From IMG/VR virus record IMGVR_UViG_3300042559_002108: a stretch of DNA of 20,000 bases. One strand, 5' to 3'. Source of the DNA: an uncultured virus (IMG/VR IMGVR_UViG_3300042559_002108). Taxonomy: Duplodnaviria > Heunggongvirae > Uroviricota > Caudoviricetes. Positions 7,900 to 8,985 of this stretch are shown piece by piece. Within the stretch, counting starts at the first letter, position 1. Every line of letters starts with the position of its first letter. A program made the position numbers and the translations under genes. The notes under the pieces were generated by a model, which saw nothing but the letters and a program-made list of their open reading frames with translations, was not told the DNA's origin and did no database searches.

Positions 7900-7927
7900 G
7901 TGGCCATAACTATAATTGTCCTAAGGT
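7900..7927 (+). other. 23S rRNA helix 69-like sequence (antisense in the capsid mRNA 3' UTR)
   Basis: GTGGCCATAACTATAATTGTCCTAAGGT vs conserved 23S GCGGCCGTAACTATAACGGTCCTAAGGT (E. coli about 1904-1931, also the I-CeuI site), recalled from memory: 24/28 identical. Confidence 0.7.
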
Positions 7928-7929
7928 TA

Positions 7930-8985
7930 TTAAACTTCGTTAGTGAGCTGAACCTCGTAGTTACGAGCTAGGCTTACATTCTTAGCAACAGTAATACCTT
8001 CACCGTCACCAAGCATAACAATGTCATAACGCTCTTTCATCTTAAGCTGACGGATGTCACGGCTTGGATCATCAAACTGATCTGTTGTCATGTCATCTTT
8101 AACGAGGAGTGTACCAACCTCATTACGGTCAATCAAGAAAAGGTCTGACTTAGCTGCGGTTGCGCCACTCTTAGCTGTAAAGCTAACGAATGGTGAAACC
8201 AAAACATTAAGACCCATTGGAGCGGTTGCATTGAGTGCTGCATCCGGTGACTGAGGACGGTATCCCCAGCTTGTGCCAACAGCAGAAGCTGCGCCACCTG
8301 CATGGAAGATACTATCCTTAAGGAATACCGACCACATAAGTGGGTGAAGTATAAAGTCTGTTGGAATGTGCTTTTCAGCCATAAGAACAGCCGCCATGTC
8401 AACGATGTCATCCCAAGTAACTGTTCCATTGGCTGTGCCAGTGAAACCCTTACCAGTTGTGTCATCATAACCTGCATCATCGTTGTCAAAGACAATTGTT
8501 GCAGCATCTTTGAAGCGACTTAGTGCGATTTGTTCCTTGAGACGTGCCATAGCACGACCTGCTGCACGAACATGAAGACCAACAATGTCCCAAAGTGAGT
8601 CAGTGATGACTTCTTCGGTGAATGCTAACTTCACGCCCTTCTTTGAGACTTTACCCTCAATTTGCTTTGCAAAGGCGAGTGCCTGCTCTGGATACTCTTG
8701 TCCTTCTGGGATCTCAGCTGCTTGAATAGCATTAACGGCTGGGAATTCGAGGGAACGACCTTTGCCAAGGCGTACTGTTGAAAGCAAAGGAGTTACCAAA
8801 AGCTGTGGCTCAGCTGCTTCCTTTAGAGTACGAGAGATAATCTTGGGGAAAAGTATTGCTGCATCAGGTGATGCAAATGCTTCCCTTACGGTTACTCTAT
8901 TGTTCTCATCGATATACCCATCCTCTGATAATGCTGCTTCCCATGCTGGGAGACCAGAAAGAAGTTCTTGGATTGTTTTACTCAT
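7930..8985 (-). CDS. Major capsid protein (HK97-like fold)
   Basis: 351 aa, after protease/scaffold and decoration genes, before a strong terminator. Motifs AAEIPEGQEYP, KKGVKLAFTEEVITDS, FILHPLMW, KERYD. Biased codon usage typical of high expression. Confidence 0.92.
   Translation of the reverse strand: MSKTIQELLSGLPAWEAALSEDGYIDENNRVTVREAFASPDAAILFPKIISRTLKEAAEPQLLVTPLLSTVRLGKGRSLEFPAVNAIQAAEIPEGQEYPEQALAFAKQIEGKVSKKGVKLAFTEEVITDSLWDIVGLHVRAAGRAMARLKEQIALSRFKDAATIVFDNDDAGYDDTTGKGFTGTANGTVTWDDIVDMAAVLMAEKHIPTDFILHPLMWSVFLKDSIFHAGGAASAVGTSWGYRPQSPDAALNATAPMGLNVLVSPFVSFTAKSGATAAKSDLFLIDRNEVGTLLVKDDMTTDQFDDPSRDIRQLKMKERYDIVMLGDGEGITVAKNVSLARNYEVQLTNEV

What the first reader, a model, noticed from the sequence alone, without database searches (positions are those of the whole stretch)
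7900..7932. Major capsid mRNA 3' UTR is antisense to 23S rRNA helix 69
Seen: directly after the MCP double stop (TAA TAA) and before the terminator, the transcript reads (A)CCUUAGGACAAUUAUAGUUAUGGCCAC. This is the reverse complement of a 28-nt stretch matching conserved 23S rRNA about 1904-1931 at 24 positions, with the H69 loop UAACUAUAA intact. Two of the differences (G1910A, C1920T) are a compensatory pair in the H69 stem. Established: H69 forms intersubunit bridge B2a, contacts A/P-site tRNAs and release/recycling factors, and its mutation affects reading-frame fidelity. The sequence is also the I-CeuI target and a group I intron insertion region. Inference: a likely very abundant late transcript may carry an anti-H69 element, or the opposite strand makes an H69 decoy for an rRNA-targeting defence or modification enzyme. 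A link to the CGGA frameshifting is speculative.
Basis: partly seen in the sequence, partly recalled or inferred. Interest (0 to 1): 0.8.

Follow-up and report, generated by a model that had tools for sequence, protein, structure and literature searches.

The report
Conserved anti-H69 hairpin after capsid gene
Right after the major capsid gene of a large group of uncultured lake phages sits a small conserved RNA hairpin whose unchanging letters are the exact mirror image of helix 69, a universal working loop of the bacterial large ribosomal RNA, so the phage's most abundant message may grip ribosomes directly, though no binding has been measured.

Summary
Window 7900-7927 (+) matches E. coli 23S rRNA at 24 of 28 positions. 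It is the best 28-mer match in the window, and 1 of 150 dinucleotide shuffles reached that score.

The window copy is a diverged member of a conserved RNA element. In 77 of 80 related loci the capsid stop codon is followed within 0-10 nt by CCUUAGG, a 2-4 nt linker and (G)UUAUAGUUAC. The element forms a hairpin with compensatory changes, and an intrinsic terminator follows it.

These 17 fixed letters match E. coli 23S once, antisense only, at the H69 loop and the bases after it. The chance expectation is about 1e-6. The same motif follows a second, unrelated capsid gene family, in two separate clades. It also sits in a hairpin loop in a complete 134-kb phage.

G-U pairs place the structure on the mRNA strand, so the "H69 decoy on the opposite strand" reading fails. 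Lake metatranscriptome contigs cover the capsid gene and the element, and stop near the terminator.

My best reading is a natural antisense to H69 that contacts 50S subunits or nascent 23S. That mechanism is inferred, not shown.

This scan noted the same element earlier on other DNA (e1-6010454). My literature searches found nothing in print.

The parts
7930..8985 (-). Major capsid protein gene (351 aa), first stop TAA at 7930-7932
   Evidence: ORF list. Pfam Phage_capsid_4 E 3.9e-16. PHROG major head protein E 4.7e-29. 38-45% identity to the major head proteins of Bacillus phages 0305phi8-36 and KLEB27-3.
7927..7929 (-). Second in-frame stop codon (TAA)
   Evidence: Read from the sequence. 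Tandem stops are common in relatives.
7881..7926 (-). The whole anti-H69 stem-loop element of the capsid mRNA 3' UTR. This is the window-clade variant, which carries an inserted inner hairpin.
   Evidence: Fold. Same position and motif as in 77 of 80 related loci. Covered by RNA contigs down to 7885-7890 in 3 of 4 lake metatranscriptome runs.
7920..7926 (-). Box 1, CCUUAGG: the 5' strand of the outer stem, and the complement of the 23S bases just 3' of H69
   Evidence: CTTAGG is invariant in alignment A1. CCTTAGG occurs in 89 of 99 unique contexts and TCTTAGG in 10.
7906..7916 (-). Box 2, AUUAUAGUUAU (family consensus GUUAUAGUUAC): the complement of the H69 loop and its closing pair
   Evidence: TATAGTTAC is invariant in A1. 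The window variant is seen in 2 of 99 unique contexts. The best duplex site in the whole 23S is the H69 region.
7890..7910 (-). Inner hairpin (GUUAUGG / UCAUGGC), specific to the window's clade. It overlaps the 3' half of box 2.
   Evidence: MFE fold. Other clades have a different inserted hairpin (GUCAC..GUGAC) or none.
7881..7888 (-). 3' strand of the outer stem (GUCC..GG)
   Evidence: Fold. The equivalent strand covaries with the linker in relatives.
7838..7880 (-). Intrinsic terminator: a 12-bp G+C-rich stem with an inner GCGAAAGC hairpin, followed by U7
   Evidence: Fold. Relatives have a different terminator sequence at the same place. No RNA contig was laid on 6600-7884.
7022..7792 (-). 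Next gene downstream (256 aa, no family match), with its own AAGGAG ribosome-binding site. A conserved (G/A)TTACTA..TAT motif precedes it after the terminator.

Best explanation
Shown. Window 7881-7926 (- strand) is a member of an uncatalogued, conserved cis-RNA element at the 3' end of the major capsid mRNA of an uncultured lake jumbo phage. Related contigs of 109-177 kb are estimated 52-84% complete. The element begins 0-10 nt after the stop codon and forms a stem-loop. It is followed by an intrinsic terminator. It displays two sequence-invariant boxes, CCUUAGG and (G)UUAUAGUUA(C). Together these are the exact complement of 23S rRNA at the H69 loop with its closing pair, and of the seven bases after the H69 stem.

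Inferred. The element acts as a natural antisense to H69. H69 is exposed in free 50S subunits and in nascent 23S rRNA. The loop-displayed box 2 could form a loop-loop ('kissing') contact with it. Box 1 could extend the contact once the terminating ribosome has melted the stem, which lies inside or at the mouth of the mRNA channel when the stop codon is in the A site. The likely result is capture or retention of 50S subunits, or of not yet fully modified pre-50S particles, on the most abundant late message. This would alter subunit joining or recycling to the benefit of capsid synthesis.

The direction of the effect (tether and enhancer, or anti-association and shut-off) cannot be told from sequence.
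For: 1. Conservation. 77 of 80 loci encoding capsid relatives (89% identity or more) have the element. C-termini, stop codons, linkers and terminators differ among them. It occurs once per genome in 5 of 5 large contigs.

2. Hairpin. Pairs 5-37 to 10-32 are paired in 46-51 of 52 rows. Pair 10-32 is GC 39, AU 7, CG 2, GU 3. All slid controls are lower. In my own register the next inner pair is paired in 44 of 65: UA 28, CG 6, AU 5, UG 5.

3. Strand. Frequent U-G/G-U pairs fit only the mRNA strand.

4. Complementarity. The 17 fixed letters with a 1-5 nt gap hit E. coli 23S exactly once, antisense only. The composition-based expectation is 1e-6. In 2000 motifs with shuffled halves the best was 15 of 17, once. 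BLAST of a relative's element (L143) against 5426 E. coli genomes hit all 5426; the 3 hits listed lie in 23S on the minus strand, the best at 22 of 23. The best predicted duplex site in the whole 23S is H69 for all three variants tried.

5. Independent contexts. The same two boxes follow an unrelated HK97-type capsid gene in two separate, well-supported clades: 2 changes needed in 200 of 200 bootstrap trees, with different surrounding folds. They also lie in the loop of an intergenic hairpin in a complete 134-kb phage.

6. Substitution pattern. Inside the boxes only A-to-G and C-to-U changes are seen (box 2 positions 4, 10, 11; box 1 position 1). All of these keep a G-U wobble with the rRNA. 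Changes that create mismatches occur only at box 2 positions 1-2 (99 unique contexts).

7. Sequence beyond structure. The CC of box 1 is conserved although it is not needed for the stem: pair 4-38 is unpaired in 44 of 52 rows.

8. Transcription. Contigs from four lake metatranscriptome runs cover the capsid gene and end at 7885, 7890, 7890 and 7920.

9. Precedent that H69 can be reached by an antisense strand. A PNA against E. coli H69 blocks translation and growth (Kulik et al. 2017, read only as a passage of the review PMC12828698).
Against: - No binding, no chimeric read and no phenotype exists. Everything after 'complementary' is inference.
- Box 1 is paired inside the element's own stem. 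In the window's clade half of box 2 is also paired, in an inner hairpin. Access therefore needs melting.
- In E. coli the middle U of the H69 loop is N3-methylated pseudouridine (recalled knowledge). This cannot pair with the invariant A6 of box 2, so mature ribosomes would be a poor target.
- In the 70S ribosome H69 is buried in bridge B2a (recalled).
- The 23S bases that box 1 would pair with are themselves part of rRNA helices.
- The linker between the boxes does not keep rRNA complementarity (linker table).
- The element is dispensable. Three of 80 lineage-1 loci have lost it, about 59 of 77 lineage-2 loci lack it, and the five cultured relatives lack it.
- The wobble argument rests on few events: 3 of 5 transition-permitted internal positions, about p 0.1.
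- The regex used to collect variants allowed only certain changes.
- The RNA data are contigs. They show neither strand nor true 3' ends.
Confidence: 0.45

Rival explanations
1. The hairpin is a protein- or RNase-recognised 3'-end element: an mRNA stabiliser, a processing site or a termination modulator. The likeness to antisense 23S would then be a relic of an rDNA fragment captured in inverted orientation, or convergence on a protein's preferred sequence, with no contact to rRNA.
For: - The element sits directly before an intrinsic terminator at the end of the most abundant late mRNA. This is a typical place for protective or processing hairpins.
- RNA contigs end at 7885-7890, at the foot of the element. 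That would fit 3' trimming back to a stable hairpin.
- The stem covaries.
- The linker does not keep rRNA complementarity.
- The window clade keeps extra rRNA-like letters in the flanks (24 of 28), as a decaying relic might.
Against: - A stabilising hairpin needs no invariant 11-nt loop and no conserved unpaired CC.
- The same 17 letters recur in at least four contexts with different folds. This asks for a shared, probably host-encoded partner, and the only known exact partner is 23S.
- A relic would decay, yet the boxes are the most conserved columns.
- No candidate protein is known.
Confidence: 0.27
2. The target is not the ribosome but H69-like RNAs. Bacterial tRNA-gene arrays carry a conserved RNA unit of roughly 200 nt whose 5' part reads as the sense H69 loop plus the following bases. 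The phage element would be an antisense that neutralises such an RNA, or the phage and these arrays are two sides of a conflict centred on H69.
For: - A genome scan found 53 sites: 12 true 23S genes, and 31 non-rRNA sites sharing the context ..CGUAACUAUAACG-N-CCCUAAGGUAGCGA.. in Cyanobacteria, Myxococcota, Bacteroidota, Catenulispora, Chloroflexota and Verrucomicrobia.
- Of 20 such loci scanned, 14 have tRNA genes within 1.2 kb. In all 14 the tRNAs lie on the strand on which the element reads sense.
- Phage linker variants GUC, GCC and GAC are exact complements of array variants GAC, GGC and GUC, giving 22-23 nt perfect matches.
Against: - The host of the window's phage is unknown, and no such array was tied to it.
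- The search pattern forced the CCC/GGG variant, so the agreement in the linker is partly built in.
- G at that linker position is also explained by the phage hairpin's own G-C pair.
- The array RNA's function and expression are unknown.
- Phage complementarity does not extend into the array RNA's further conserved UAGCGA.
Confidence: 0.1
3. A DNA-level signal: a homing-endonuclease target copied from rDNA, or an antisense promoter using the TATAAT inside the H69-like loop.
For: - The 23S stretch is a known homing-endonuclease and intron insertion region (recalled).
- A sigma-70-like site CTGCCA-17-TATAAT lies on the + strand at 7888-7916, matching 10 of 12.
- A free-standing DNA endonuclease-like ORF lies at 359-901.
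Against: - Relatives read TATAAC, losing the critical last T of the -10 box.
- Conservation stops at CCUAAGG(U); the further rRNA bases that a centred homing site would need are replaced by the stop codons.
- Compensatory changes and G-U pairs show selection on RNA of the mRNA strand.
Confidence: 0.03
4. A chance resemblance, noticed because H69 is a well-remembered sequence.
For: For the window alone, 1 of 150 shuffles reaches 24 of 28.
Against: - The family's invariant 17 letters match 23S exactly, against an expectation of 1e-6.
- The conserved columns are the matching columns.
- Relatives match as well or better in the core (22 of 23 in L143).
- There are at least four independent contexts.
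Confidence: 0.02

Closest known systems
Termination-reinitiation signals (TURBS) of caliciviruses and influenza B segment 7
   Same: A viral mRNA element next to a stop codon. It holds a short conserved motif complementary to ribosomal RNA, is displayed by local structure, and is thought to hold ribosomal subunits after termination. I saw only the search listing and abstracts of PMC3035654, PMC2793014 and PMC11921876.
   Different: TURBS lies upstream of the stop, pairs with small-subunit 18S rRNA, and serves a restart codon overlapping the stop. Here the element is downstream of the stop and complements large-subunit 23S H69. It is followed by a terminator, and the next start codon is about 130 nt away behind its own ribosome-binding site.
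Shine-Dalgarno / anti-Shine-Dalgarno pairing and other bacterial mRNA-16S complementarities, such as the phage T7 gene 10 leader enhancer (recalled)
   Same: A prokaryotic mRNA sequence that works by base pairing with rRNA.
   Different: Those lie at the 5' end, pair with 16S and act in initiation. I know of no bacterial or phage mRNA element that pairs with 23S, and my searches found none.
Synthetic antisense PNA against E. coli H69 (Kulik et al. 2017, Biochimie; read only as a passage in the review PMC12828698)
   Same: An oligomer complementary to H69 that reaches its target and blocks translation. It shows that H69 is accessible to antisense strands.
   Different: It is man-made, invades the hairpin with a PNA backbone, and is inhibitory. 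The phage element is natural RNA, partly folded, and its effect is unknown.
Conserved RNA motifs downstream of phage major head genes, such as the Mu-gpT-DE motif (name and description recalled; the one paper found names it once)
   Same: A structured, conserved RNA immediately downstream of a major capsid gene, of unknown function.
   Different: No Rfam family matched the window element or 12 relatives at E up to 1-10. No rRNA complementarity is described for that motif, as far as I recall.
3' cap-independent translation enhancers of plant RNA viruses, such as the BYDV-like element with 18S complementarity and the ribosome-binding T-shaped structures of carmoviruses (recalled)
   Same: A viral 3' UTR structure that contacts ribosomes or rRNA to favour viral translation.
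   Different: These are eukaryotic, and act in initiation through 5'-3' communication. No conserved 5' partner sequence was found here within 2.5 kb.
Loop-loop (kissing) antisense RNAs such as ColE1 RNA I/RNA II (recalled)
   Same: Two hairpins with fully complementary 7-9 nt loops. In some relatives the element is a full mirror of H69, including a CCG/CGG stem (L143).
   Different: In those systems both partners are dedicated regulatory RNAs. Here one partner would be the ribosome.

Membership tests
Anti-H69 capsid-downstream hairpin (uncatalogued; noted before by this scan as e1-6010454) | Lies directly after the stop codon of the major capsid gene, on the mRNA strand | tested here: met
   Box 1 starts right after the second TAA. 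In 77 related loci it starts 0-10 nt after the first stop.
Anti-H69 capsid-downstream hairpin (uncatalogued; noted before by this scan as e1-6010454) | Box 1, CCUUAGG | tested here: met
   Exact at 7920-7926 (-). It is invariant in A1.
Anti-H69 capsid-downstream hairpin (uncatalogued; noted before by this scan as e1-6010454) | Box 2, GUUAUAGUUAC, placed 2-4 nt after box 1 | tested here: met
   The window has AUUAUAGUUAU after a 3-nt linker. The core UUAUAGUUA is exact; both end positions are changed, and the 3' change is wobble-compatible.
Anti-H69 capsid-downstream hairpin (uncatalogued; noted before by this scan as e1-6010454) | Box 1 plus the linker pair with a downstream strand, so that box 2 lies in the loop | tested here: met
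   Outer stem CC..GGAC / GUCC..GG with a 2-nt internal loop. However, an inner hairpin pairs the 3' half of box 2 in this clade.
Anti-H69 capsid-downstream hairpin (uncatalogued; noted before by this scan as e1-6010454) | Followed by an intrinsic terminator | tested here: met
   Terminator at 7838-7880. The simple pattern scan missed it because its loop holds an inner hairpin.
Any Rfam family (4227 models), including BjrC68 | Score at or above the family's gathering threshold | tested here: not met
   The best hit was BjrC68 at 27.9 bits against a threshold of 39 in the window, and 19.8-29 bits in relatives. This is a hairpin-plus-terminator shape only.
H69 decoy (sense mimic of helix 69) on the + strand | The H69 stem and loop are kept as a hairpin on the strand that reads like rRNA, and that strand is transcribed | tested here: not met
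   The H69 5' stem strand is not conserved in relatives. The conserved pairs include U-G/G-U, valid only on the mRNA strand. The promoter-like site is not conserved.
LAGLIDADG homing-endonuclease target of the 23S H69 region (I-CeuI type; site recalled) | Both half-sites around the cleavage centre are present | tested here: not met
   Beyond CCUAAGGU the window and its relatives diverge from 23S; stop codons and a variable spacer lie there. Cleavage itself cannot be tested with these tools.
TURBS-type termination-reinitiation signal | The element lies upstream of a stop codon that overlaps or abuts a restart codon | tested here: not met
   The element is downstream of the stop. A terminator and about 130 nt separate it from the next start.
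rRNA-pairing mRNA element (functional class) | Physical base pairing with rRNA | not testable with these tools
   Only complementarity and predicted duplex energy are available: -38.7 kcal/mol for the window variant, with the best site in the whole 23S being H69.

The most novel reading that the evidence does not exclude
Phages of at least three unrelated lineages have independently equipped an abundant late transcript, usually the major capsid mRNA, with a natural antisense RNA against helix 69 of 23S rRNA. This would be the first prokaryotic mRNA element that works by pairing with the large-subunit rRNA. It would capture 50S subunits, or naive pre-50S particles that still lack the H69 methylation, at the stop codon. 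Bacterial tRNA-array islands carrying sense H69-like RNAs would then be the other side of a so far unknown conflict fought over H69.
Probability: 0.3. Interest if true: 0.92.

Novelty: new variant of a known kind. Interest (0 to 1): 0.78.

Why it matters
H69 forms the central bridge between the ribosomal subunits and touches tRNAs, release factors and the recycling factor. No natural RNA is known to target it.

The element described here is conserved, abundant in the environment and transcribed, and is perfectly complementary to H69. It is placed at the stop codon of the most highly expressed phage gene and was acquired several times. If it binds, it would be a new way for a virus to steer bacterial ribosomes.

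It would also give a ready-made, universal RNA handle on the 50S subunit, because H69 is nearly invariant in bacteria, so E. coli or B. subtilis ribosomes can be used for the tests.

Even if the partner turns out to be a protein, this is a new, widespread structured RNA family of lake phages.

Tried and rejected
- Megablast of 7000-9500 against cultured phage records gave no match.
- The window's own assembly is not held. A 100% identical 44-kb IMG/VR fragment was used instead.
- Cultured relatives by capsid protein (three Bacillus phages, one Moorella, one Acinetobacter) have no such motif after the capsid gene, in 0 of 5.
- Repeated promoter or regulatory word: rejected. TTATAGTTA with up to 1 mismatch is not enriched in the window (15 found, 11.2 expected), and the full motif is single-copy per locus and per genome.
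- Intramolecular partner (mRNA circularisation or pseudoknot): rejected. The sense word TAACTATAA upstream is confined to the window's near-identical clade.
- Antisense promoter: rejected as not conserved.
- Of the IMG/VR motif hits that lie outside capsid 3' ends, four (L087, L103, L115, L153) lie inside ORFs. I set them aside as chance; they were dropped before the counts, as were the 23S and bacterial loci.
- My automatic choice of the 3' pairing partner failed for several insertion-bearing variants (window type, L029, L016/L022, L135, L173, L056, L183). These rows lower the inner-pair counts and were not removed.
- Search for a T4-type capsid family in the 134-kb phage of the third context: nothing. 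The controls did not ring either, so this says nothing.
- YrlA (Y RNA-like) hits beside the bacterial H69-like units are far below threshold (31-40 bits against 69). They may be the tandem-tRNA artefact that PMC4201824 warns of.
- Metatranscriptome contigs leave 6600-7884 uncovered. Because these are contigs, that part without cover is not used as evidence of absence.
- Searches of this scan's notes by sequence and by place found nothing for this genome.
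Full report
**What is at the coordinates.** The window is a structural-gene block of an uncultured phage, with all genes of interest on the - strand.
- The portal gene is at 12533-14173.
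- The major capsid gene is at 7930-8985. It matches Pfam Phage_capsid_4 (E 3.9e-16) and a PHROG major head protein family. It is 38-45% identical to the major head proteins of Bacillus jumbo phages 0305phi8-36 and KLEB27-3.
- The capsid ORF ends TAA TAA. The mRNA continues CCUUAGG ACA AUUAUAGUUAU GGCCAC...
- It then runs into a strong intrinsic terminator: stem at 7845-7880 and U7 at 7838-7844. The 98-nt 3' end folds with z = -4.9, and 0 of 200 shuffles fold as well.

A 44-kb IMG/VR fragment is 100% identical over the 2 kb compared. Related contigs of 109-177 kb are estimated 52-84% complete, so the phage is a jumbo phage of roughly 200 kb.

I fetched an E. coli 23S gene with the tools (L207).
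- Window 7900-7927 (+) matches it at 24 of 28 positions (record positions 1898-1925).
- This is the best 28-mer match of the whole window on either strand.
- In 150 dinucleotide-preserving shuffles the best match was 20-23 in 149 and 24 in one.
- Taken alone the match is only moderately unusual.
- The translation of these positions into the standard numbering (1904-1931), and the identity of the loop with H69, rest on my recollection of the E. coli numbering.

**It is a conserved element.** A protein-guided scan of IMG/VR found 556 stretches encoding capsid relatives; the best 80 (89-100% identity) were kept.
- In 77 of the 80, the first stop codon is followed within 0-10 nt by CCUUAGG (or UCUUAGG), a 2-4 nt linker and (G)UUAUAGUUAC. 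The protein C-terminus, the stop codons, the linker, the rest of the loop and the terminator all differ.
- The three exceptions carry a degenerate remnant.
- The motif is single-copy per locus.
- It occurs once per genome in 5 of 5 large contigs.
- The word is not enriched in the window.
- Five cultured relatives at 26-45% capsid identity lack it.
- No Rfam family matches the window or 12 relatives. The only recurring hit, BjrC68, stays 10-19 bits under threshold and reflects a hairpin-plus-terminator shape.

**It is an RNA hairpin on the mRNA strand.**
- In a MAFFT alignment of 52 distinct simple-hairpin variants (A1), CTTAGG and TATAGTTAC are invariant.
- The stem formed by UUAGG plus the first linker base with a downstream strand is paired in 46-51 of 52 rows. 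The innermost of these pairs is GC 39, AU 7, CG 2, GU 3. Every slid control is lower.
- In my own stacking-register analysis of 65 distinct variants, the next pair is formed in 44 of 65: UA 28, CG 6, AU 5, UG 5. Rows where my partner choice failed were left in.
- One stem pair is U-G in 29 of 52 rows and another is G-U in 9. On the opposite strand these would be C-A mismatches, so selection acts on the transcript that is antisense to rRNA.
- The 3' strand varies while the 5' strand (box 1) does not.
- The CC of box 1 is conserved although it is mostly unpaired: 44 of 52 rows at pair 4-38.
- Box 1 and box 2 are therefore constrained as sequences, beyond what the fold requires.
- The window's clade is a derived form. 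It has an extra inner hairpin (7890-7910) that pairs the 3' half of box 2, and both ends of box 2 are changed. Two of 99 unique contexts have this box.

**The complementarity to 23S is not chance.**
- The family motif (17 fixed letters, gap 1-5) occurs exactly once in E. coli 23S, on the antisense strand.
- From base composition the expectation is 1e-6 for one 23S on both strands.
- In 2000 motifs with shuffled halves the best score was 12 of 17 typically and 15 of 17 once.
- BLAST of one relative's element (L143) against 5426 complete E. coli genomes hit all of them, with a median of 7 places. The three hits listed were 23S rRNA on the minus strand, at 22 of 23 in the best.
- RNAduplex places the best site of three variants in the whole 23S at this region: -38.7 kcal/mol for the window variant, -30.6 and -41.7 for the other two.
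- The columns conserved among phages are the columns that match rRNA. The variable linker is where they differ.

**The motif recurs in independent contexts.** I looked at 80 of its loci and at the rest.
- *Second capsid family.* Besides the jumbo-phage capsid loci, the motif follows a different 343-aa HK97-type capsid gene. That gene matches Pfam Phage_capsid and shows no BLAST similarity to the window's capsid. Among 77 usable loci of this second family, 8 match the strict motif. Another 10 carry variants, among them GUUGUAGUUAC. The rest have a plain spacer and terminator.
- *Two clades within it.* On a maximum-likelihood tree of the 51 distinct proteins, the 14 element-bearing rows form two separate, well-supported clades. 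Two changes are needed in 200 of 200 bootstrap trees, and 0 of 500 label shuffles are as low. The two clades embed the boxes in different local folds.
- *Third context.* Four contigs, one of them a complete 134-kb genome with terminal repeats, carry the two boxes in the loop of an intergenic hairpin. The hairpin is co-oriented with its neighbouring genes.
- Four further hits lie inside ORFs. I regard them as chance.
- The same 17 letters in at least four settings with different scaffolds argue for one shared trans-acting partner. The only exact partner known is 23S.

**The pattern of substitutions.** Among 99 unique contexts, box 2 is GUUAUAGUUAC in 82. The variants change position 1 (12 contexts), position 2 (2), position 4 A-to-G (3), position 10 A-to-G (1) and position 11 C-to-U (2). 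Box 1 changes only C1-to-U (10).
- All changes at internal positions keep a G-U wobble with the rRNA. Changes that create mismatches are confined to the loop-closing end.
- This is what RNA-RNA pairing predicts, but the number of events is small: three of five transition-permitted internal positions, about p 0.1.
- The collecting regex allowed only certain changes.

**Expression.** Twenty-four lake-water metatranscriptome runs hold the stretch. Contigs of four of them were laid.
- They cover the capsid gene continuously from beyond 9198.
- They end at 7885, 7890, 7890 and 7920, which is within or at the foot of the element and 5-10 nt before the terminator stem.
- No loose ends were seen there, and nothing was laid on 6600-7884.
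- These are contigs. They show that the element is present in RNA libraries joined to the capsid message. They give only a weak hint of a 3' end near the terminator or trimmed back to the hairpin, and they do not show the strand.

**Mechanism.** Three things are shown:
- A conserved, transcribed hairpin at the capsid stop codon.
- Two invariant boxes that are the exact complement of the H69 loop, its closing pair, and the seven bases after the H69 stem.
- Repeated acquisition of those boxes.

The rest is inferred:
- The element begins 0-10 nt after the stop. A ribosome with the stop codon in its A site must therefore melt the stem, since by recalled knowledge about 12-15 nt downstream lie in the mRNA channel.
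- H69 is freed when the recycling factor and EF-G split the subunits, and it is exposed on free 50S (recalled).
- The loop of the element and the loop of H69 are perfectly complementary hairpin loops. This is the geometry of kissing complexes. In one relative the mirror extends to the stem (L143).
- A synthetic PNA against H69 blocks translation. I read this only as a passage of the review PMC12828698 citing Kulik et al. 2017.
- I therefore favour contact with 50S subunits or with nascent or immature 23S.
- The N3-methyl on the middle pseudouridine of the H69 loop is added late, on 70S ribosomes (recalled). It would block pairing with the invariant A6 of box 2, which points to particles that are not yet modified.
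- Whether the outcome is tethering and enhancement, or anti-association, cannot be decided from sequence.

**What speaks against this reading.**
- There are no binding data.
- Both boxes are partly sequestered in the window variant.
- H69 is buried in 70S ribosomes.
- The linker is not complementary to rRNA.
- The element is dispensable in many relatives.

**Rivals.**
- *(a) A protein- or RNase-recognised 3'-end hairpin whose rRNA likeness is a relic.* This fits the position before the terminator and the contig ends. It does not explain the invariant loop, the conserved unpaired CC, or the recurrence in four scaffolds.
- *(b) Antisense to H69-like RNAs.* See the next section.
- *(c) A DNA-level site.* Rejected. 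The promoter-like TATAAT is specific to the window's clade. Conservation covers only one side of the homing-site span. The covariation is RNA-like.
- *(d) Chance.* Excluded at family level.
- *A long-range partner within the phage mRNA.* None was found.

**Noticed on the way: an H69-like RNA in bacterial tRNA arrays.** I scanned one genome per bacterial species for the GGG-linker form of the motif and found 53 sites.
- Twelve are genuine 23S genes with a variant H69 stem.
- Ten look like chance.
- Thirty-one are non-rRNA sites with a shared context, found in Cyanobacteria, Myxococcota, Bacteroidota, Catenulispora, Chloroflexota and Verrucomicrobia.
- Of 20 of these scanned with Rfam, 14 have tRNA genes within 1.2 kb. 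In all 14 the tRNAs lie on the strand on which the element reads as the sense H69 loop plus the following bases, extended by UAGCGA.
- An alignment shows further conserved blocks over about 200 nt.
- I did not establish what this RNA is.
- Some phage linker variants are exact complements of array variants, so I keep rival (b). The search pattern partly built in that agreement.

**Comparison with what is known.** The nearest functional analogues are all different in important ways.
- Viral termination-reinitiation signals (TURBS) display an 18S-complementary motif beside a stop codon (listing and abstracts). They lie upstream of the stop, target the small subunit and serve an overlapping restart codon.
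- Shine-Dalgarno-type pairings act at the 5' end with 16S.
- Plant-virus 3' enhancers are eukaryotic.
- Capsid-downstream RNA motifs such as Mu-gpT-DE (recalled; named once in one paper) share the position, but as far as I know not the rRNA complementarity.
- Full-text searches for helix 69 with complementary, mRNA and bacteriophage gave 13 papers, none on a natural antisense. The phrase 'complementary to 23S rRNA' with phage gave 0 papers.
- I therefore found nothing in print. Subscription journals are mostly outside the library searched.

**Earlier notes of this scan.** The scan's notes hold the same element on other DNA (e1-6010454). They also hold a lake phage with small RNAs antisense to 16S and H69 (e1-6078890). 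I used them as leads only. The conservation, hairpin, complementarity and closest-known comparison were re-derived here. I could not tie my third context to the second note.

**Verdict.**
- The antisense reading is supported as far as sequence can go.
- The decoy reading is rejected.
- The mechanism is open.
- The element is real, widespread, transcribed and uncatalogued. It points at a specific, testable partner that is the same in every laboratory bacterium.

Noticed in passing
Bacterial loci L288-L338 (31 of the 53 hits), e.g. L295:1201-1221, L303, L334, L338: Across six phyla, tRNA-gene arrays hold a conserved non-rRNA unit of about 200 nt. Its 5' part reads, on the tRNA strand, as the sense H69 loop plus the following 23S bases (..CGUAACUAUAACG-N-CCCUAAGGUAGCGA..). 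Further conserved blocks follow. Of 20 loci scanned, 14 have tRNAs within 1.2 kb, all co-oriented with it. No Rfam family matched; only sub-threshold YrlA-like hits lie nearby. This may be an undescribed rRNA-mimicking RNA.
   Followed up: partly
L129:1501-1519 (also L144, L148, L197); record G007: A complete 134-kb phage genome with terminal repeats, and three related contigs, carry the same two anti-H69 boxes with a 1-nt linker. They lie in the loop of an intergenic hairpin (stem GAAGAGGGCGC/GCGCUCUCUUC), between a small ORF and a lipoprotein-like ORF and co-oriented with both.
   Followed up: partly
L135, L146, L183 and L208-L287: A second, unrelated HK97-type capsid family (343 aa) carries the element in only two clades. 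Most members have a plain AT-rich spacer and terminator. One element-bearing record (that of L251) is classed by IMG/VR as a provirus, which might reveal a host.
   Followed up: partly
window 7800-7835 (-), and the same place in L002-L166: Just after the capsid terminator, nearly all relatives have a conserved (G/A)TTACTA(N)TAT.. word before the next gene. In the window it reads GTATTACTAATTATG. It is probably the phage's own promoter type, and it shares the GTTAC core with box 2.
   Followed up: no
window 7888-7916 (+): A sigma-70-like site, CTGCCA-17-TATAAT (10 of 12), points antisense into the capsid gene and uses the H69-like loop as its -10 box. It is present only in the window's clade.
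   Followed up: yes
window 359-901 (+): The only sizeable ORF on the opposite strand matches PHROG 'DNA endonuclease' families (E 1.2e-15) and the tail of a 2OG-Fe(II) oxygenase family. It may be a free-standing mobile endonuclease gene between structural genes.
   Followed up: no
window 11266-11274 (+ strand word; reads TAACTATAA on the mRNA strand): The sense H69-loop word occurs once more, about 30 nt into the 499-aa ORF 9804-11303. It is found only in the window's near-identical clade, so it is probably chance.
   Followed up: yes
I did not look at it.
   Followed up: no
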